A DNA stretch of 64,000 nt from Chrysomallon squamiferum. Lineage: Eukaryota; Animalia; Mollusca. This document shows positions 23,848-57,337 of this stretch, piece by piece. Within the stretch, counting starts at the first letter, position 1; each line of letters begins with the position of its first letter. Below the pieces are notes generated by a model. That model did not search any database and was not told the DNA's origin. It saw only the letters and a program-made list of their open reading frames with translations. The stretch lies in contig CM022674.1 of the NCBI GenBank assembly GCA_012295275.1, positions 2,108,001 through 2,172,000 on the forward strand. Direction: 5' to 3'. The position numbers and the translations under genes were made by a program.

Positions 23848-24033
23848 CCCCTATTAGAAATACATTTTTTTAAACAAAAATTACAGACATAAAAACATTC
23901 ACAGCTATATGGACATGTAATTAATTATTAAGACTATTTTATGTGGTTATTTTTTTTTTTTTTTTTTTAAATTAACTTTCATTCACAAATCAAATGCACT
24001 CAGCTGATAACTAATTTTTTGTGTGTTTTACAG

Positions 24034-25662
24034 AATTTCCCTTGTCGCCAAGGCGAAGCAGAGCGACAACCTCTTTTGACAGAAGATCAAGAGGGAAGGG
24101 AAACAACTCCAGCCGTGAACCAGAACGGATCTAACAACAACAGAGTAGTGGAACTTGGCAAATCAGGTAATAGTCTGCCTGAACACACAACAAGGGACAC
24201 AACTCCGGAGCAGACAGGGGACACAACTCCGCTGATAGAAAATCCTCATCATTCGGAGTTTGGCCTGTCCCAGTCGGACAGCAGTCTGAACTCAAACAAC
24301 CCTTTCAGACTGAGTGCCCAGACGGAGTACACTCCACCTCCAGACGACGTCGTCTGCAGCTACGTCGGCTACAGCAGCAACAACAACATCTTCGTCAGTA
24401 GCCTCTGGGACCACAGGAACAACAGCTACCACAACAACTCGCCGAAGTGTCTGCTGCGCAGCGAGTCGCTGCCAGTGAGCGCCGGTGTGGATGTGCACGG
24501 ACATCACCGGTTCAACCCTTCGTACCTGACCCAGGCTGATCACAGCCGCTCCCTGGGCGAGGCACAAGCCAGGTACGACAGCAGCTCCCTGGTGTACCAG
24601 TCCAGTATGGTGGATCCAGGTAGCAGACAGTCCAGCATGGATTCGTCATGTGCGGATCCAGGTAAGAAACAATCCAGTTTGGATTCTTCATGTGCAGAGG
24701 ATCCAGGTAAAAGACAGTCCAGTGTTGATCCAGTGTGCGTGGATCCAGGTAAGAAACAATCCAGTTCGGATTCTTCGTGTGTGGATCCAGGTAAGAAACA
24801 GTTCAGTGTGGATTCTTCAAGTTTTGATCCAGGTAAGAAACAGTGTAGTGTGGATTCTTCATATGTGGATCCAGGTGAAAAACAATCCATTGTAGATTCT
24901 TCAGGTTTGGATCCAGGTAAAAAACAATCCAGTTTGGATTCTTCATGTGTGGATCCAGGTAACAGACAGTCCAGTATTGATTCAACGTGCATGGATCCAA
25001 GTAAGAAACAAGTTTCTTCAGGTCTGGATTCAAGTGAAAAACAATCCACTGTGGATTCTGCGAATCTGGATCCAAGTGACAGACAGTCATCGTCCACTGT
25101 GGATTCGTCTGGTTTGGATCCAGGTGAGAGACAATCCAGTGTGCCGTCATCAAGTGTTAACCCATCCAGCTCAGACAGAGTCGCTGGGTCTGGTGTTGAT
25201 GAGTCGTCATCACCCAGTGTCGACAATAGTCCAAAACAGTCCACCAGTGATAACACTGAAACAGCGTCCAGCATTAGACAGTCCAGTTCTGAACGTTTCG
25301 TCAGACAGTCCAACGTGGATGGACAGTCCAGTTTAGACTGTCCAGATCCAGATGACAAATGGAGTAAAATCTCACCTGATGCAAAGGATGCAGAGATTTC
25401 CAGTGAACGTGATAACGAAACATTAAATTTGCAGCAGATGTCTGCGGATAGTGTAAAGGGAGATAACTCACCACCGACAGCTTCGTGTGGTGAGAGAGGA
25501 AGCGACACCGAAGAGTGCAGCAGTGAAGGGAAAGATAACTCTGGTAGGAGATGTGGTGAAAAGGTTGTCCCTAAGGACAGAAGGTTGGTGAAGAGACCAG
25601 TGTTTGATAAGAATGCTCTGGAGACATTACTGTCTTCTGAAAAGCAATCCACTTTACTTTAA
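24034..25662 (+). CDS. Gene A terminal exon: long Ser/Asp-rich disordered tail with 14-aa repeats, ending EKQSTLL*
   Basis: gtgttttacag|AATTTC, phase 0, in frame with the 547-aa non-microsatellite ORF; stop TAA at 25660-25662. Confidence 0.85.
   Translation, partial: NFPCRQGEAERQPLLTEDQEGRETTPAVNQNGSNNNRVVELGKSGNSLPEHTTRDTTPEQTGDTTPLIENPHHSEFGLSQSDSSLNSNNPFRLSAQTEYTPPPDDVVCSYVGYSSNNNIFVSSLWDHRNNSYHNNSPKCLLRSESLPVSAGVDVHGHHRFNPSYLTQADHSRSLGEAQARYDSSSLVYQSSMVDPGSRQSSMDSSCADPGKKQSSLDSSCAEDPGKRQSSVDPVCVDPGKKQSSSDSSCVDPGKKQFSVDSSSFDPGKKQCSVDSSYVDPGEKQSIVDSSGLDPGKKQSSLDSSCVDPGNRQSSIDSTCMDPSKKQVSSGLDSSEKQSTVDSANLDPSDRQSSSTVDSSGLDPGERQSSVPSSSVNPSSSDRVAGSGVDESSSPSVDNSPKQSTSDNTETASSIRQSSSERFVRQSNVDGQSSLDCPDPDDKWSKISPDAKDAEISSERDNETLNLQQMSADSVKGDNSPPTASCGERGSDTEECSSEGKDNSGRRCGEKVVPKDRRLVKRPVFDKNALETLLSSEKQSTLL
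24610..25145 (+). repeat. Coding 42-bp tandem repeat (consensus peptide DPGKKQSSLDSSCV), about 13 degenerate copies
   Basis: Recurring GGATCCAGGTAAGAAACAATCCAG units, visible in both DNA and translation. Confidence 0.9.
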
Positions 25663-29415: not shown

Positions 29416-29525
29416 GTTGCTACGGTAACACCCCCCCTCCCCACACACGCGCGCGCGCACAACATCTGCCCGACTGGTGTTTCGGAGACTCTTTACGCCC
29501 GCTTCGCCGCCGTTTCCATGGTAAC
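29416..29525. promoter_or_regulatory. Pair of RFX X-box-like palindromes: GTTGCTACGGTAAC (29416-29429) and GTTTCCATGGTAAC (29512-29525)
   Basis: Match to the X-box consensus GTTNCCATGGNAAC; function unverified. Confidence 0.4.
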
Positions 29526-29955
29526 GTAGCGCTCTTCGTCCGCGGCCGCCTCGCTGTTTTTCTTCTCCTGCATGGCCAGCGCGGCTTTCATGTTCTGCAG
29601 GTTCTCCAGCGACTCGTAGAAGTTCTCCTCCCGTCTCCCCCCCTGCCACTCGCCCAGGGACTTGGGGTAGTCGTACTGCGTGCACGCGGCGAGGGTGCGG
29701 CGTCCGCACGGACGGGGTGGGGGGCAGTCGTAGGTGGCGTCAGTGCCCGACAGCATGGCGCCTGTGACGTACGTCGGGTTGGTCAAGCTCATCGACGGCA
29801 GGTTGACGTCACTGATGTACGTTTTGATGTTGACGTTGTTGTCGTCGTCGTCGTTATCGGAGGGGAGGTCTTTCTCTGTGAGAGGTTTCGCTGCGTCACC
29901 GTAGTAGCGGTTTTCGAACACGACCGGGGGGTAGTCGTCAACGTGTTTGCGTCTT
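29493..29955 (-). CDS. Gene B terminal exon: Tyr-motif-rich cytoplasmic tail
   Basis: atttcag|AAGAC, phase 2, GC-rich. Encodes RRKHVDDYPPVVFENRYY...NPTY...YDCP...YDYP...YESL...YVTMETAAKRA*. Confidence 0.88.
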
Positions 29956-29985
29956 CTGAAATAAATAAATAAAATAAAATAAAAT

Positions 29986-30016
<31 letters not shown>

Positions 30017-30579
30017 TAAATAAATGTACAAATAAATAAATAATGAAATATATAAATAAAATAAATTAAAATAAGTAAATAATTAAATATATAAATACAC
30101 AAATAAACAAATAAAATAAATACATAAATAAATAAATAATGAAATAAATAAATAAAAAAAACAACAAATAAATAAATACATATACAAATAAATAAACAAA
30201 TAAATACAGAAATACATAAATAAATAAAAAAATAAAAAAATAAAATAAATAAATACATAAATAAATAAATATAGAAATAAATACACAAATAAATAAATAA
30301 ACAAACAAATACACAATTAAATAAATAAAATAAAAACAAAAATTTGTAACAGTAATATAAACACAACAGTAAATATTTATAAATTAATAATAATGAAAAT
30401 TAAAACACACTTTTCTGTACACATATAATTATTAATACCACTGATGTTTTTAATTAAAAATTATTATAAAAAAATAAAAATATAAATAAAAATAATTCAT
30501 ATTTGCTTTCATTAACAAAATGAAATAAAATAGGTTAATTCCTTTATGATTCTGAAAATTAAAAACAATGATAGCAAAC

Positions 30580-31290: not shown

Positions 31291-31679
31291 CTGTAATTAA
31301 ATTATTCACAGGTTGTACCTTAACCAGTTTACTGCACATCAGTATGTATAAATAAAATACACTTCAGATGTAATACCTTTAACCAGTATATATATCAAAA
31401 TTAATACCCACTTTTAAACATAAATGCATTTTAATACGTGAATTAAAACTTTCAAGGTGAATTTCAGTTTAACTGTGTTAAATAAAAATAAATATATAAA
31501 TAAAATAAATTAAATAAATTAAAACAAAACAAAATAAGTTAAAAATAGAATTAAAGAGAATAAGAATTATTTATTAGCATTTGTTGTCTTATTTAACTTA
31601 TCAATAATAATGATGATGATGACAATAATGATAATGAGGAATGAATCGTGTTCTAATAACATTTCGAGTTTATCCTCAC

Positions 31680-31962
31680 CTTGATGAATCAAAATAGCTC
31701 CAGAGTGAGATGTTGTTGTAGCTGCTGTTGTTGATGTTGTCACTGGGTGATTCCGCTGGTAACCTGCTGACAGGTTTTTCTTCCCATGCAAAACTTGCTG
31801 CTTCACAACCACTACTTCAGGAGTTGCTGTTGTTGTTGTTTGCTGTGTAGTTGAGTTTGTTGCCAGTGTCTTTACGACTGTTGATGCCACTGTTGTTGTA
31901 GTTGTTGTTGTAGTTGTGGTGGCAGGTGGTTGTGGTAGATGTCGTAGTGAGAGGCTTCATTT
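31680..31962 (-). CDS. Gene B exon 4: Thr-rich mucin-like stalk (1-nt frame discrepancy near 31927)
   Basis: cattttag|AAATG...CAAG|gtgagg, 283 nt. KMKPLTTTSTTT is followed, in a shifted frame, by [29 protein letters not shown]...ILIHQ. Confidence 0.75.
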
Positions 31963-33054: not shown

Positions 33055-33265
33055 GTGAAGTTCACAGAACACACACACCTGTCACCCATCTGTGAAGCTC
33101 ACACAACACACACATACCTGTCACCCATCTGTGAAGTTGACACAACACAACACACACACACACCTGTCACCCATCTACGAAGTTCACACAACAGACACAC
33201 ACACACACACACCTGTCACCCAATCTCTGAAGTTCATACAACACAACACATACCTGTCACCCATC
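33055..33265. repeat. Tandem duplication of the gene B exon 2 donor junction: 4 extra copies with variable (CA)n spacers
   Basis: acctgtcaccca(t) occurs five times, the last being the true exon end. Confidence 0.9.
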
Positions 33266-33529
33266 GCCAATCCATTTCTCTGTCTCTGTCTGAGGCTCCT
33301 ATCCAGACTCCGTTATATGGCCAGTGGAGACTTCGCAGACTTCGCATGATGAAGTTCTGAGTCTCCTGGTCTTTGATGACCACAAGGTGACCGTTCTTCC
33401 TCCTGCACACAGACTGGGCACTGGTCCAGAACCTTTCGTACTCGTAGAACTGGTAGCAGTGATCTCGGAACGTTTTCAGTTTCGTGCCTCTGTACAGGTC
33501 ATCCGGACACCGGTACATGTCATCTGTGG
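33254..33529 (-). CDS. Gene B exon 2: N-terminal half of the C-type lectin domain
   Basis: actttcag|CC...ACAG|gtatgt. Encodes ...CP...CYQF...WTSAQSVC...GHLVVI...VWIGASD...WRWVTG, the canonical CTLD signature. Confidence 0.93.
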
Positions 33530-34487
33530 CTGAAAGTAATGATAATGATAATGATAATAATAATATTAATAATGATAATAATAATGTTGATGATGATGAT
33601 GATAATAATAATGACCATGATGTTGTTGATTATGGTGATGATAATAATAACAATTGATGATAATGATGGTAATAATAACAGTATATACAACAACAACAAT
33701 AACAATAACAATAACAATAATAATAATAATATGACAAAAAAGGAAAAAAAAGGAAGAGTATTACGAGGATTAAAAAACAGCAAAAACAAAGAGGAATGGA
33801 ACAATCAAAAGCTGATTCAGTTATTACAAACAACCAACCAACCATGCAAAACAAACAGAACAAATAAAACAAAACAAACTGAAATCACTGTTTTTTTTTA
33901 TACTGGAAGACTTCTAGATGCAGGATTAACCACTAGGTCTATAAAAATTCTTCGATCCAGCAATCAAATAACATATATCCTTTTTATTCTAATGTTCCCG
34001 ACTCTTCTGTTTTGTTGCTTTACTTGTGAAAGAATGAAATAACAAGAAATGTGAGAGAAATCTTCTTCTGCAACTTCACATGCTTTCCTTCACACACACA
34101 TTACTTCACACACACATCACTTTGTAAGATAAACAAGCTATACCACAGGAACTTTCAACTTTCATGCATTTCCAAATCTGTTGGATGCAAAAGCATATTG
34201 TTCTTTTTAAGGTATTTAGAGCTTTTGTTGTTCATAGTATATTTAAGTAAGTTTTCATTTCTGAAATACTGGTGTAATTTAATGTACTGATTATGAGGAA
34301 GAATGCATAAAGATAATTTTTTAATAAATTGTTTATTGTTTGTTTTCAAAGAAAGGAATAAAAATCAAATCAAATCAAATTAAATCAAATCAAAGAAATC
34401 AATAAACAAGATTTAATTTTAAAAAAAAAAAAATGCATGCATCCATATTAAAATCAGTTGTTATTTTAAAGATATTTTGGATTTATG

Positions 34488-47720: not shown

Positions 47721-47882
47721 TTAATAGCAGGATTTTAACAACGACATTTTTCTCTTGGTGGCCTTTTGTGTCTTAGCTTTTTGAGACAGGGGGTGTTTAG
47801 TTTTAGAAACTTTAGTCCTGGGACGAACCTTGTTCATTTCTTCCCCGTGGCGAGTCTGAATTTCGTTGATGATGCCTTTCGT
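47721..47882 (-). CDS. Gene C terminal exon: basic tail ending KRKMSLLKSCY*
   Basis: ccttccag|ACG, phase 0. Exon lengths sum to 3057 nt with exon 1b, an intact 1018-aa frame. Confidence 0.82.
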   Translation of the reverse strand, partial: TKGIINEIQTRHGEEMNKVRPRTKVSKTKHPLSQKAKTQKATKRKMSLLKSCY

Positions 47883-48499
47883 CTGGAAGGAGAAAAATAA
47901 AAAAGAAAAAGTAATTAAAAATAAAAGAAAAAAAATATTTAAAAAAAATAAAATAAAATAAAAAATATTTTTGACGCTCACAATCTTTATTTATAAGCAA
48001 ATGTAACGTGAAAAGCATAACGTTAAAAAAAATCATTTGTAAGCGTCGATGTGTTTTGTAAGTCGTGACGTCATCTCGTAGACGTCAGATATATATATAC
48101 ACATACAGTTTCTTTTAATGAGTTTCAACCGCCTACACGATGTCTTTTTCAGGTGTGTTATTTTGGCTAACAACAATATTATTTACTTTTTTGTTACTGG
48201 AGACGATGGATAAAGTACTAACTTAAAGTACTGTATTGATCTATACCGTCATACTCTCACTAGAAAACGTTAGATGCTGTAATTAAAGAAGAAGAAGAAG
48301 AAGAAGAAGAAGAAGAAGAAGAAGAAAAAGAAGAAGAAGAAGAAGAAGAAAACGGAAAAAGAAGGAAGAAGAAAAAGGTTTATAAATAGAAGAAGAAAGA
48401 CACGAATCACTTCAGTGTAATTAATAGTTCCATCAGTCAAAATCAGTTGAACTGAACCGTTGCCATTGAAACCTAACGACGTCATGGACAAAAACGTAC

Positions 48500-48685
48500 C
48501 CAAACGAAAAACGTTGCTGCTCCGGCACTGACGACCCTGACCTCGTCCAGCGTGTGGCCGTGAAGTAGGTCACGTGCTCCTAGTGCAATGTCAAGGTCGA
48601 CTTTGTCGATGTTGAATTCTTCTATGAGACGTTTCGGTGAGTCTTTTCCAGTTTTACCCATCAGTACTTGTACCTTCATCCAGTC
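48500..48685 (-). CDS. Gene C exon 7: dynein-MTBD-like module, continued
   Basis: atcaag|GAC...TGG|gtacgt, 186 nt, phase 0 to 0. Encodes DWMKVQVLMGK...FNIDKV...LDEVRVVSAGAATFFVW. Confidence 0.85.
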
Positions 48686-48698
48686 CTTGATGATGATG

Positions 48699-48744
<46 letters not shown>

Positions 48745-48814
48745 AGCAGCAGCAGCAGCATAAACAACAACAACAACACAACAACAACAATAATAATAAT
48801 AATCATAGAGCAGC

Positions 48815-48853
<39 letters not shown>

Positions 48854-48988
48854 AATAATAATAATAGCAACAACAAAAACTACAAAAACAATAATAACAT
48901 TAGAAATAGTAACAGTAATAATTGTAGTATTAAAAGTAAAAGTATTCGTAAAATAATAATAATAATAATAATAATAATTAATAAAAAC

Positions 48989-49269
48989 CTGGGTTTCGTC
49001 TGTGAAATGTCCAAGCAGTAACAAGGCAGCCATTAGAATTCTGTGCACGACCGGCGGAGGAGAATGGTACCCCTTCAGTTCCGCAATAGTGGACTGGTCC
49101 AGCTGCATGACGTCATGCCACAGCTTGTGAATGTGATCCAACCTTTCCATCAGGCACTTGGCTTTTTTCATGTCGTCTGTCATGGCCGGTTCGGAGCCTT
49201 TTTCTTTGATCAAATTTGTGATCGCTTCAAGTCGTTTCAAATCCCTAGAGTTTATCGCTTCGGCAAGTT
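48989..49269 (-). CDS. Gene C exon 6: helical region and start of a dynein-MTBD-like module
   Basis: ttttacag|AACTT...CCAG|gttttt, phase 1 to 0. Encodes ELAEAINSRDLKRLEA...LDQSTIAELKGYHSPPPVVHRILMAALLLLG. Confidence 0.88.
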
Positions 49270-50278: not shown

Positions 50279-50689
50279 CTTTCTTCATCTGAATCACTTC
50301 CAGCTCTTTCTGCGCTCTCTCCAGCTCGTGCACTGCTTGTTCAGCGGTCAGCTTTTTCCTCACTTCGTACAGACTCGTGTTCATTTGCGAAATCTGCAGG
50401 GCCGTAAGTCCTTTCTCCCGCGTTTCACTCGCGACTTTGACGTGGTCGTAGAAGCCGTTGTTGTCGTTGTCGTTGTTGTCGTTGTTGTCGTTGTTGTCGT
50501 TGTCGTTGTTGTCGTTGTCGTCGTTGTTGTCGTTGTCGTCGTCGTCGGGTTTGTTGTCCTCTTCTGCGATCGGGAAGGGCTCAGTTTTGACGACTTCCTT
50601 CAGTTCGTTGATCGTCTTCTGAAGTTCTGGTTCGTCCATCGCTTCAGCGGCCAAAGCGATTCTGTTCTCGATGTGTCCAGCTTTTGATT
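50279..50689 (-). CDS. Gene C exon 5: helical/coiled-coil linker with an Asp/Asn trinucleotide insert
   Basis: ccccacag|AATC...AAAG|gttcga, 411 nt, phase 1 to 1. Confidence 0.85.
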
Positions 50690-51380: not shown

Positions 51381-52948
51381 CTTCGTCAGCAGACGTGCTG
51401 ACTGTGGCAGCAGACGACACTTTGAGTCTGATGATCTGAGGAGTCAGAGGAGAACTGAATGTTCCCATGGCGCTCTCCACCGACTTGTACTCAACGACGT
51501 AATCAAACAGACCCTGGAAGTCACTCTGGTCTTTGCGCTTCCCCACCAGCTTCAGCCCGTAGTTGCCATATCTGGGCAACGTCACCGTGTACGTGACGAC
51601 GTCGTCGTCGACAGCCTCTTCGACGTACCTCCCGAGGTCTGAGTCCAACGTCTCCGAACCCGTCAGCGACATCGAAACGTCGATGGGCCTCGAGAGGAGA
51701 AACGACACCTGAACTTCGTCCGTTTCCGTGAAGATCATCCCCGACGGGTGGGACACGGGCACCACGCCCAAGTCCCGGCAGGCGATTCTCTGGCCGAGCT
51801 GGTCCTCGAAGCCTTTCGGGTACCCGGCCCTCTTCCGTCTCTGCGATGAGGTGATGAGGTAGTTGAAGAAGTTGCGGTCCTCGGACGCGGCCGCGTAGAG
51901 ACACAGAGAGTACTCTCCCTTCTTGGGCAGTCTGACGCTGAAGATGAGCTTGTTGTCGACGTACCTGTGCACGACGCGGTGTTTGATTATCTCCTCCTTC
52001 ACTCCGGATTTCGACAGGATCGCCGTGAATTTGAGCTTCTTCACTTGCTCCATGTCTTTTATTTCGAACATGATGTCCACCTCGCCGTTCTCGTCCGCCT
52101 GGACCAGTCCGCTCGGGTGACTGACCGGTGACAGCCACCTGGCGGCCGTCTCCTCCGTCGGGCCCCACCCGTTCTCGGGGGTCTCCGGGAACGGCAGGCA
52201 TCTGACTTTCGCTCGCGTGAAGACGATTTTGTAGATGGCGATCCAGTCGTATTGGTATCCCAGCTCGTTGATTCGGCTGTCCTTTCCGACGATTTCCAGA
52301 CGGAAAGTCCCGACGACAGGCGAGCGAATCGTGACGCTGAGAACGTCCGGTTTCGGCTTGTGCACGAACACGTAGCGATCGTACTTCGGGGAGAACCCCG
52401 TCACGCCTTTCGACTCCTGCCTGAACAGCAGGCAGTAGAACCTGAGGTGCATCCCGGACTCCGCGGGAATCCTGAAGAGGATCTCCTCTTGTCCTGCGGA
52501 CGTGATGACGCAGTCGGGGTGCGTCATGACGGCGAGGCCCAGGTCGAAGAAGCGGTCCTTGAGGAAAACCATCTGCTCGAATCGTTCGGCCGTTATCGGC
52601 GCCTCCCTCAGCTGCCACTCGGGCAGGAACGGCAGGTGGGTGGAGATGAGCTGGCGAGGGTCGGTGAGGAAGTAATTCTCGTCACACGTGTAGACGAAGT
52701 TCCTCTCCCGCTTTCTGTCGGTGTCCGGGTCCGATTCGGCGGCTTCGTCCGGATTCGCCAGCCACTCGTCGCCCCCGTCGATGCCGACGGCGCATGCGCC
52801 CCAGTAGGCGTTCATGAACCGCCAGTGCCCGTCAACGAGGACCGCGTTCCACTCGCCGTAGTGAGCGTCGTCGTCGATTTTCTGGCCCACGTCGTAGTTG
52901 GAGCCTTTGAGCTTGCCGTTGACGATGACGCACACGATGTCGCACAGT
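51381..52948 (-). CDS. Gene C exon 4: rest of the transglutaminase-like domain plus three KY-type Ig-like beta-sandwich repeats
   Basis: ctctgcag|ACTG...GAAG|gttcgt, 1568 nt, phase 2 to 1. Motifs CVIVNGKLKGSNY, WNAVLVDGHWRF..AYWGA, DENYFLTDP..LISTHLP..PEWQL. Three repeats start at [ST]HP and contain P..G.[FY].L. Confidence 0.92.
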
Positions 52949-53702: not shown

Positions 53703-53935
53703 CTGCACAAAATACTAACAAGCTGAGCGTAATTCCCCTTCCCATTTTTGATCCTCCACAGCTGGTGCAGGGGCGTGGCAGGGTCGGGCTGAGTCTGGGG
53801 CAGGAGCTGCTCGTCAAGCTGAACTGACGTAATCCAGCGGTAGATAACTCTAACTTTGGACAGCGTGTCTCTCAGGTTTTCAGTCAGGTACTTGGTCAGT
53901 TCAATGTAGGGTTCTTTCAACAGGCTGCCTGGAGT
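53703..53935 (-). CDS. Gene C exon 3: first part of the transglutaminase-like domain
   Basis: tatttcag|ACT...TGCAG|gtctgt, phase 0 to 2. LTKYLTE...KVRVIYRWIT...GKGNYAQLVSILCR matches the KY/Hillarin/Cyk3 pattern. Confidence 0.9.
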
Positions 53936-54783: not shown

Positions 54784-54984
54784 CTTGTCGGCTCTCGAAT
54801 CTAAGCAGATGTAATCCCGGGGGTCGAAGATTTCCTCTTTGGTGGTGGGCGGTGGGTGGGGCGGTGGTAGCGACTTCACGCTTTCCAAGTCTTGAACCCA
54901 GAGCCCGTGACGCTGGGAGAATTCGTAGCTGGGGTGAATCTGGTAGGTGGCGAGAAACGATCCCGGGACCCGCTCGGCAGAAAC
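54784..54984 (-). CDS. Gene C exon 2: N-terminal region of a KY/Hillarin-like transglutaminase-like protein
   Basis: catttcag|GTT...AAG|gtaaag, 201 nt, phase 0 to 0. Encodes VSAERVPGSFLATYQIHPSYEFSQRHGLWVQDLESVKSLPPPHPPPTTKEEIFDPRDYICLDSRADK. Confidence 0.85.
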
Positions 54985-57304: not shown

Positions 57305-57337
57305 CTTGCTTGGAAACGTAGAGATTCCGCATCCCAT
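57305..57337 (-). CDS. Gene C alternative first coding exon 1a: MGCGISTFPSK
   Basis: ataATGG start context; donor CAAG|gtaaat; 33 nt, phase 0, compatible with the exon at 54984. MGCxxS is a myristoylation/palmitoylation-type N-terminus. Confidence 0.65.

What the first reader, a model, noticed from the sequence alone, without database searches (positions are those of the whole stretch)
47860..49120. Dynein microtubule-binding-domain-like module fused to a KY/Hillarin-type pseudo-transglutaminase scaffold
Seen: spliced exons 6-8 of gene C read LDQSTIAELKGYHSPPPVVHRILMAALLLLG...DWMKVQVL...IEEFNIDKV...LDEVRVVSAGAATFFVWTKGII. Established: the dynein heavy-chain stalk tip has the pattern L...I.E[LI]KS..[NS]PP..V..V..A.C.LLG...W......F..D.I......V..[VA]S.A...L..W, flanked by coiled coil. 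Here the module also follows long helical segments, but there is no AAA ring. It sits behind a transglutaminase-like domain and three Ig-like repeats. Vertebrate KY and fly Hillarin are not, to my knowledge, described with such a module. Inference: a motorless microtubule-binding scaffold that reuses the dynein MTBD fold. Combined with the acylated N-terminus it could tether membrane to microtubules, for example in cilia or flagella.
Basis: partly seen in the sequence, partly recalled or inferred. Interest (0 to 1): 0.85.

Follow-up and report, generated by a model that had tools for sequence, protein, structure and literature searches.

The report
Motorless dynein foot on KY scaffold
This animal gene, likely from a mollusc, ends in a copy of the small domain that dynein motors use to grip microtubules, attached not to a motor but to a KY-type scaffold that lacks its catalytic residues and has a predicted lipid anchor; the design recurs from molluscs to amphioxus and likely ties membranes to microtubules.

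Summary
Confirmed. An 8-exon minus-strand gene (57337-47721, 1024 aa) encodes: an MGxxxS start, a transglutaminase-like domain lacking its triad, three KY-type Ig domains, short three-helix repeats, and a C-terminal homolog of the dynein microtubule-binding domain (MTBD; residues 872-976). Profile searches of the PDB return almost only dyneins (best E 2.5e-7, then 1.8e-13). A model of the abalone homolog matches dynein MTBDs (Z 13-17). The fusion is no gene-model artefact: 16 of 17 mollusc homologs carry the whole module, and the same architecture occurs in an annelid, a brachiopod and amphioxus. The module is a large, apparently unnamed animal family (624 clusters at E<=1e-10; also sponges and tunicates), usually C-terminal and often with a myristoylation-type start. 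It keeps three of six dynein-tubulin salt-bridge residues (the H1 glutamate in 99%), shifts or loses the rest, and lacks the long stalk. Microtubule binding is untested, and this gene's junctions were not checked on reads. Best reading: a static membrane-to-microtubule linker (about 50%). The scan noted motorless MTBDs on other DNA before, but not this architecture. Ten literature searches found no description.

The parts
57305..57337 (-). Exon 1 (aa 1-11): MGxxxS start with Cys3, predicted N-myristoylation plus S-palmitoylation
   Evidence: family statistic
54784..54984 (-). Exon 2 (aa 12-78): conserved N-terminal region with a Pro-rich stretch
   Evidence: homologs align from about aa 1-19
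53703..53935 (-). Exon 3 (aa 79-156): first half of the transglutaminase-like domain; K144 sits at the catalytic Cys position
   Evidence: (Transglut_core E 0.2)
51381..52948 (-). Exon 4 (aa 156-679): second half of the TG-like domain (G187 and N202 at the His and Asp positions) and three Ig-like_KY domains (about aa 277-645)
   Evidence: PF23265 E 4.5e-55, 3 stretches
50279..50689 (-). Exon 5 (aa 679-815): first three-helix repeat, split by an acidic D/N low-complexity insert (about 50561-50454, net charge -15)
   Evidence: this repeat copy is inferred from the alignment, the repeat HMM did not detect it
48989..49269 (-). Exon 6 (aa 816-909): second three-helix repeat, whose last helix is CC1, then MTBD helices H1-H2 (E879, K881)
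48500..48685 (-). Exon 7 (aa 910-971): MTBD helices H3-H6 (K920, R959)
47721..47882 (-). Exon 8 (aa 972-1024): short CC2 helix, basic tail (net +12 in 44 aa) and stop codon
47868..49102 (-). Dynein-MTBD-like module as a whole (aa 872-976, spliced over exons 6-8)

Best explanation
The gene encodes a KY/Hillarin-type pseudo-transglutaminase scaffold that ends in a motorless homolog of the dynein microtubule-binding domain and likely acts as a static linker from a membrane (predicted myristoyl/palmitoyl anchor) to microtubules. Shown: the architecture, homology and predicted fold of the module, the lost TG triad, and conservation of the layout across molluscs, an annelid, a brachiopod and amphioxus. 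Inferred steps: (1) Gly2 is myristoylated and Cys3 palmitoylated, holding the N-terminus at a membrane. (2) The dead TG domain and Ig domains bind partner proteins, as KY, Hillarin and Cyk3 do. (3) A variable number of three-helix repeats sets the reach. (4) The module docks in or near dynein's intradimer cleft through E879, K881 and K920, with R959 and a new basic patch after H3 standing in for lost contacts, helped by the basic tail. (5) With no AAA ring, a stalk of only a few turns and no kink prolines, affinity is not switched by ATP, so it holds rather than walks.
For: Homology. Fold of the abalone homolog's module (56% identical to this gene there): pLDDT 87; Foldseek's 9 hits at E<=0.001 are all dynein entries; VIA Z 17.0 to 5ayh (rmsd 5.7, 148 aligned), 14.3 to 6l4p_B (2.5, 124), 13.2 to 6kio_M (2.4, 126), against 7.8 for the first unrelated row. 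Tubulin-facing residues, mapped on yeast MTBD by the alignment and the salt-bridge list of PMC7042235 (passages): E3122, which that paper calls the sole acidic residue of the binding face, is E in 99% of 155 family domains; R3124 is K/R in 79%; the position matching mouse R3342 is K/R in 76%; further K/R columns after H3 are 79-80%. Membrane anchor: 44 of 159 Met-starting proteins begin MG and 42 of those 44 have S/T at position 6 (32 of 32 among KY-bearing ones), versus 9 of 115 internal MG sites. Dead enzyme: human KY triad C225/H267/D282 and C236/C243 (PMC13434911 passages) map by spacing to K144/G187/N202 and C155/C162; 0 of 60 KY-type relatives with a residue at the Cys site have Cys, 0 of 61 have His. 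One gene: 16 of 17 homologs carry the whole module and one part of it, including intron-free contigs of 3224 and 3110 nt holding 928- and 915-aa ORFs. Possible precedent: a motorless chain on Toxoplasma intraconoidal microtubule 1 matches the model at Z 9.6 and fits ICMAP2, which binds between protofilaments (PMC12819142 passages; chain identity inferred from residue numbers).
Against: No binding or localisation data exist. Of six yeast salt-bridge positions this gene keeps three: K3117 is Q874, R3152 is M912, and the H6 arginine R3201 is V960. In the family that H6 position is K/R in only 11% and D/E in 39%; none of 155 domains keeps all six. The K3117 and R3201 positions are basic in the three axonemal dyneins shown, so both changes depart from working dyneins. 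This gene's module is net acidic (-5; family median +2). The R3159 assignment is ambiguous by one residue between yeast and mouse. Radial-spoke and sperm-doublet chains also match the fold (7jtk_C Z 12.3, 9fqr_Xl Z 10.2), so the fold may serve other contacts. The Toxoplasma match (Z 9.6) is below the tool's caution line for helical folds. Family members were chosen by a profile in which the glutamate is invariant, which can inflate its conservation. Several close bivalve homologs and the abalone record do not start with MG.
Confidence: 0.5

Rival explanations
1. The module came from a dynein MTBD but was repurposed as a general protein-binding cap of a helical-repeat rod, and no longer binds tubulin. 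The protein would be a cortical scaffold working with actin, septins or Rho, like Hillarin, LTD-1 and Cyk3.
For: The H6 arginine and H1 lysine are lost, and this gene's module is net acidic. The fold recurs in radial-spoke chains. The module is also fused to VWA, CLCA, EGF and CD20-like domains in some records. Known relatives act at cleavage furrows, Z-discs and on Rho1 (PMC3718969 and PMC6078408 passages).
Against: The surface glutamate and the H1 and H3 basic residues that face tubulin in dynein are among the best-kept polar columns across 155 domains from sponges to chordates.
Confidence: 0.3
2. The protein is a ciliary or flagellar structural part that links the ciliary membrane to doublets or occupies dynein's binding site as a brake, rather than a general cortical linker.
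For: The best Foldseek match of the full-length homolog model is the central-pair protein FAP246 (E 2.4e-14). The first profile's best hits were axonemal dyneins. The named carriers are heavily ciliated aquatic animals. Dual-acylated N-termini often target cilia (recalled).
Against: No expression or localisation data. The wider profile ranks yeast cytoplasmic dynein first, tied with DNAH6, so the donor is unresolved. The FAP246 match covers only the TG/Ig part, at 14% identity.
Confidence: 0.15
3. Exons 6-8 belong to a separate small gene, or are a decayed dynein fragment mis-joined to a KY-type gene.
For: The exon 7 acceptor is weak. This gene's own junctions were not checked on reads. Short stand-alone proteins with the module exist.
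Against: Exon phases join in one open frame. 16 of 17 homologs, including intron-free contigs, carry both parts. 52 of 113 scanned module-bearing proteins have KY-type Ig domains.
Confidence: 0.02

Closest known systems
Dynein heavy-chain stalk head / MTBD (Pfam PF12777 middle; PDB 6KJN/6KIO yeast, 3ERR/6RZB mouse, DNAH6, DNAH2)
   Same: Six-helix fold between CC1 and CC2; about 17-22% identity; conserved H1 Glu and Arg/Lys, the PP turn, the LG-W core and the S...W of H6-CC2.
   Different: No AAA ring or linker; CC1 continues into a three-helix repeat instead of a 15-nm coiled coil; stalk prolines absent (a Pro in 11 of 150 CC1 and 3 of 71 CC2 windows); H1 Lys and H6 Arg replaced; extra basic patch after H3; no H2-H3 flap; scores mostly below Pfam's cut-off.
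KY (kyphoscoliosis peptidase) / Hillarin / LTD-1 / Cyk3 transglutaminase-like scaffolds
   Same: TG-like domain followed by Ig-like_KY repeats; the KY cysteine pair C236/C243 is kept at the same spacing.
   Different: Human KY keeps the C/H/D triad; here all three are replaced. No LIM or SH3 domain in this gene; an acylation start instead. No C-terminal repeats plus MTBD module is mentioned for these proteins in the passages read. Their sequences were not compared directly here.
Chlamydomonas FAP246 (central-pair C1 protein, PDB 7N6G/7SQC)
   Same: Best structural match of the TG plus Ig part (E 2.4e-14, 564 columns) and a weak profile hit (E 0.009); a microtubule-associated scaffold.
   Different: 14% identity; the MTBD-module profiles did not hit it (as shown).
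Non-motor chains with a similar fold in solved cytoskeletal structures (9ya2_L, likely Toxoplasma ICMAP2; 7jtk_C and 7jrj_I radial spoke; 9fqr_Xl bovine sperm; 9e5c_2e T. brucei)
   Same: Motorless proteins whose domain aligns to this module at Z 7.5-12.3.
   Different: 8-16% identity, other architectures, no profile hits among those shown. The passages read do not call them dynein-like. Chain names were not given by the tool.
DNAHX (non-motile dynein heavy chain; PMC11785096, abstract and outline only)
   Same: A dynein derivative that does not move, from an externally fertilising animal.
   Different: The reverse case: it keeps the whole heavy chain and is reported to have a disrupted stalk-MTBD, whereas this gene keeps only the MTBD.

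Membership tests
Dynein MTBD domain (homolog) | Significant sequence-profile similarity to dynein MTBDs | tested here: met
   E 2.5e-7 and 1.8e-13 with homolog profiles; the gene's single exons alone are not significant
Dynein MTBD domain (homolog) | H1-H6 helical fold flanked by CC1 and CC2 | tested here: met
   model of the abalone homolog, pLDDT 87; Z 13.2, rmsd 2.4 over 126 residues to 6kio_M; Z 17.0 to 5ayh
Dynein MTBD domain (homolog) | Pfam PF12777 score above the curated cut-off | tested here: not met
   5 of 17 close homologs hit at E 0.0012-0.075, all under 24 bits. The model spans 344 positions including the long stalk. Three distant members pass: P0034, P0045, P0062
Dynein MTBD domain (homolog) | Six tubulin salt-bridge residues on H1, H3, H6 | tested here: inconclusive
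   3 kept (E879, K881, K920), 1 shifted by one residue (R959), 2 not basic (Q874, M912)
Dynein MTBD domain (homolog) | Binds microtubules | not testable with these tools
   needs co-sedimentation or cryo-EM
Dynein heavy chain | AAA+ ring, linker and long coiled-coil stalk with conserved prolines | tested here: not met
   1024-aa ORF with no Walker A; no AAA family in Pfam scans; prolines absent
KY/Hillarin-type TG-like scaffolds | Transglutaminase-like core followed by Ig-like_KY repeats | tested here: met
   PF23265 x3 at E 4.5e-55; PF01841 in 17 of 17 homologs at E<=0.0061
KY/Hillarin-type TG-like scaffolds | Orthology to vertebrate KY or fly Hillarin | not tested
   no vertebrate KY or Hillarin sequence was fetched; no tree of the TG domain was built
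Active transglutaminase / cysteine protease | Cys-His-Asp triad | tested here: not met
   K144/G187/N202
N-myristoylated peripheral membrane proteins | MGxxx[S/T] start | tested here: met
   present in this gene; 42 of 44 MG-starting relatives versus 9 of 115 internal controls; the modification itself is untested

The most novel reading that the evidence does not exclude
Early in animal evolution the dynein foot was cut loose and became a mobile C-terminal module on a three-helix-repeat rod. It now defines a large, unnamed family of lipid-anchored membrane-to-microtubule linkers (with KY-type, EF-hand, VWA and other heads) from sponges to invertebrate chordates. They bind at dynein's own footprint, set membrane-microtubule spacing by repeat number, and may compete with motors. 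The ancestral bilaterian KY-type protein carried this module.
Probability: 0.4. Interest if true: 0.85.

Novelty: new variant of a known kind. Interest (0 to 1): 0.7.

Why it matters
The dynein MTBD is treated as a part found only at the tip of the motor's stalk. Here it is a free module in hundreds of animal protein clusters, about half of the top hits on KY-type scaffolds. If it binds microtubules, it defines an overlooked class of non-motor microtubule-binding proteins and a simple candidate for membrane-to-microtubule links in invertebrates. It also gives a natural test of how an MTBD behaves without stalk sliding. It would tie the KY/Hillarin family, so far linked to actin, septins and Z-discs, to microtubules. 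One co-sedimentation assay with a 150-200 aa fragment decides the main point.

Tried and rejected
RNA support for this gene: no RNA holder was listed. No whole genome is held for the window, so paralogs in this genome were not counted. Pfam on single exons 6-8 gave no MT hit; the AHD hit on exon 6 (E 0.017) is below cut-off and was set aside. A region search with the oyster homolog returned only 6 close proteins; the word-indexed search with the wide profile returned only 8, none from vertebrates or arthropods, which is weak evidence of absence. The ESM Atlas gave three mollusc-dominated clusters at 0.85-0.87 (PF12777 on 14% and 54% of members of two); under 0.9 this is a lead only. 'MTBD-like' in the TTLL11 paper refers to TTLL6/7 motifs, not dynein (PMC12366701 passages). 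The module tree (155 domains, midpoint-rooted, no dynein outgroup, weak deep support, fragments labelled as non-KY) does not resolve the donor dynein or the order of fusions. No complex with tubulin was predicted: the session held no tubulin sequence. Literature searches that found no description of a KY/Hillarin-MTBD fusion or of this module. The library lacks most subscription papers, and no supplements were read; supplementary domain tables of the axoneme and conoid papers may note the dynein likeness of the non-motor chains.

Full report
Gene. The finding lies in a minus-strand gene of eight exons (57337-57305, 54984-54784, 53935-53703, 52948-51381, 50689-50279, 49269-48989, 48685-48500, 47882-47721). 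All introns are GT-AG and the frame is open for 1024 aa. The window is AT-rich, microsatellite-laden animal DNA, and the closest proteins are from gastropods (50-53% over exon 4), so a mollusc is likely. The exon 7 acceptor is weak. It is one of two AGs in a 303-nt intron that holds one in-frame stop, and the junction aligns without a gap to homologs. This gene's junctions were not checked on reads.

Architecture. Exon 4 has three Ig-like_KY domains (E 4.5e-55) and exon 3 a weak Transglut_core hit. A search with exon 4 among proteins of 915-2610 aa gave 17 hits of 6196 candidates, all named ones molluscan. All 17 have both families. 16 of 17 carry the whole C-terminal module (15 as separate matches at 39-56% identity, one inside a full-length match) and one carries part of it. 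Two are on contigs of 3224 and 3110 nt that hold 928- and 915-aa ORFs, so they are intron-free. The human KY triad is C225/H267/D282, with a C236/C243 pair (PMC13434911, passages). The same spacing puts K144/G187/N202 and C155/C162 in this gene. Among 70 KY-type proteins, 0 of 60 with a residue at the Cys site have Cys, 0 of 61 have His, and 20 of 63 have Asp. The domain is a pseudo-enzyme, like that of Cyk3 (PMC3718969, passages).

The module is a dynein MTBD homolog. Five of 17 full-length homologs, and 6 of 12 isolated stretches, hit PF12777 weakly. A profile of 12 stretches gave 48 PDB hits at E<=10; 46 are dynein heavy chains or constructs, best E 2.5e-7, and the two others score 0.35 and 2.6. 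A wider 25-sequence profile gave 82 hits; the 60 shown are all dynein-type, best E 1.8e-13 for yeast MTBD, with DNAH6 nearly tied. This gene's exon 6 alone gives only two dynein hits at E 0.54 and 0.67. The abalone homolog's module (56% identical to this gene's) folds at pLDDT 87. Foldseek's nine hits at E<=0.001 are all dynein entries, with target TM 0.71 for isolated mouse and yeast MTBDs. VIA gives Z 17.0 to 5ayh (rmsd 5.7, 148 aligned), 14.3 to 6l4p_B (2.5, 124) and 13.2 to 6kio_M (2.4, 126); the first unrelated row scores 7.8.

What differs from dynein. There is no AAA ring or Walker A. In the model, CC1 is the third helix of a three-helix unit and CC2 ends after about 20 residues. A repeat HMM finds this unit in 145 of 166 proteins, in two or more copies in 61, and in none of the shuffled controls. 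In this gene it detects one copy; a second, split by an acidic insert, is inferred from the alignment. Dynein MTBDs are bounded by conserved prolines (PMC6629372, passages). Here a proline occurs in 11 of 150 CC1 windows and 3 of 71 CC2 windows. PMC7042235 (passages) lists six yeast salt-bridge residues, which I mapped through the alignment and the numbering. E3122 is E879 (E in 99% of 155 domains). R3124 is K881 (K/R 79%). R3159 / mouse R3342 is K920 (76%; one-residue ambiguity). K3117 is Q874 (K/R 15%). R3152 is M912 (39%). R3201 is V960 (K/R 11%, D/E 39%), with R959 next to it (61%). No domain keeps all six; 121 of 155 keep three or more. The family adds basic columns after H3 (79-80% K/R). 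This gene's module is net -5 and its tail +12. The face is therefore partly kept and partly rebuilt: compatible with binding, not proof of it.

Spread. The profile found 1413 clusters at E<=0.001, 624 at 1e-10 and 101 at 1e-30 among 1.84 billion representatives. Only the best 150 were seen; the longest is 1861 aa, so none is a dynein heavy chain, but weaker unseen hits may include dyneins. Of the 148 new proteins, the 113 of at least 260 aa were scanned: 52 carry Ig-like_KY, a few carry VWA, CLCA, EF-hand, EGF, CD20-like or SH3 domains, and many carry no Pfam family. Thirty were looked up, and 23 of those clusters name an organism. The KY-plus-module design occurs in bivalves, gastropods, Owenia, Lingula and Branchiostoma. 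Other fusions occur in Branchiostoma, Styela, Sycon, Oscarella, Lamellibrachia and gastropods. The module ends within 60 aa of the C-terminus in 129 of 152 proteins. 44 of 159 Met-starting proteins begin with MG, and 42 of the 44 have S/T at position 6, against 9 of 115 internal MG sites; 21 of the 44 also have a Cys at positions 3-6, as this gene does. Small proteins of about 300 aa with this start, the repeats and the module but no KY head also exist, which suggests that anchor plus module is the functional core.

Mechanism. Best reading (0.5): a lipid-anchored scaffold whose C-terminal module grips microtubules statically, the repeats setting its reach and the dead TG and Ig domains recruiting partners. 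Rival (0.3): the module no longer binds tubulin and is a general protein-binding cap. Rival (0.15): a specifically ciliary part. The full-length homolog model (pLDDT 71, pTM 0.44) has the central-pair protein FAP246 as its best match over the TG/Ig part. Rival (0.02): a mis-joined gene model.

Known context. Non-motor chains in solved structures share the fold at lower scores: 7jtk_C (radial spoke; Z 12.3), 9fqr_Xl (bovine sperm doublet; 10.2), 9ya2_L (Toxoplasma intraconoidal microtubule; 9.6) and 9e5c_2e (T. brucei; 8.4). 9ya2_L fits ICMAP2 by residue numbers. That protein binds between protofilaments, and the passages read do not call it dynein-like (PMC12819142). PMC11779644 passages mention the MTBD only for dyneins. 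A 2026 review of microtubule-associated proteins has no hit for MTBD, dynein-like or dynein stalk (PMC13406575, term search). PMC4987762 passages and section 6 of PMC6629372 support the role of H1, H3, H6 and electrostatics. PMC6078408 passages report no shown enzymatic activity for KY. DNAHX (PMC11785096, abstract and outline) is the reverse case. Ten searches found no paper on a KY-MTBD fusion or on this module. Automatic annotation such as InterPro/Gene3D could not be checked and may already flag the domain. Earlier notes of this scan report motorless MTBDs in other genomes and a giant octopus KY-like repeat protein, but none with this architecture; I did not test them.

Verdict. Observation confirmed; interpretation supported up to the untested binding step. 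A new variant built from two known kinds, and a window on a large uncharacterised animal family. Interest 0.7.

Noticed in passing
PDB chains 9ya2_L, 7jtk_C, 7jrj_I, 9fqr_Xl, 9e5c_2e: Non-motor chains of solved cytoskeletal structures (likely Toxoplasma ICMAP2; Chlamydomonas radial spoke; bovine sperm and T. brucei doublets) align to the dynein-MTBD-like model at Z 7.5-12.3. The passages read do not mention a dynein likeness.
   Followed up: partly
proteins P0054, P0058, P0062, P0063, P0100, P0132, P0143: A group of 270-350 aa proteins with an MGxxxS start carrying a Cys, helical repeats and the MTBD-like module but no KY head: a minimal version of the design.
   Followed up: partly
proteins P0047, P0064, P0074, P0106: The module is fused behind CLCA-type and VWA domains in amphioxus and Styela records; whether it lies on the cytoplasmic side was not checked.
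   Followed up: no
proteins P0039, P0044, P0046: KY-type proteins (two named as amphioxus) insert a CARD-like domain before the repeats and expand the Ig domains to as many as eight.
   Followed up: no
window 33237-33629 (-): Exon of a C-type lectin domain gene (PF00059, E 4.5e-12); a Thr-rich ORF at 31567-31956 and a Tyr-motif ORF at 29493-30065 on the same strand may be further exons.
   Followed up: partly
window 23971-25662 (+): 563-codon Ser/Asp-rich ORF with about 14-aa imperfect repeats; no Pfam hit.
   Followed up: partly
window 50454-50561 (-): A D/N microsatellite-like acidic insert splits the first helical repeat; the abalone homolog has a different, longer insert at the same place, and most other homologs have none.
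   Followed up: partly
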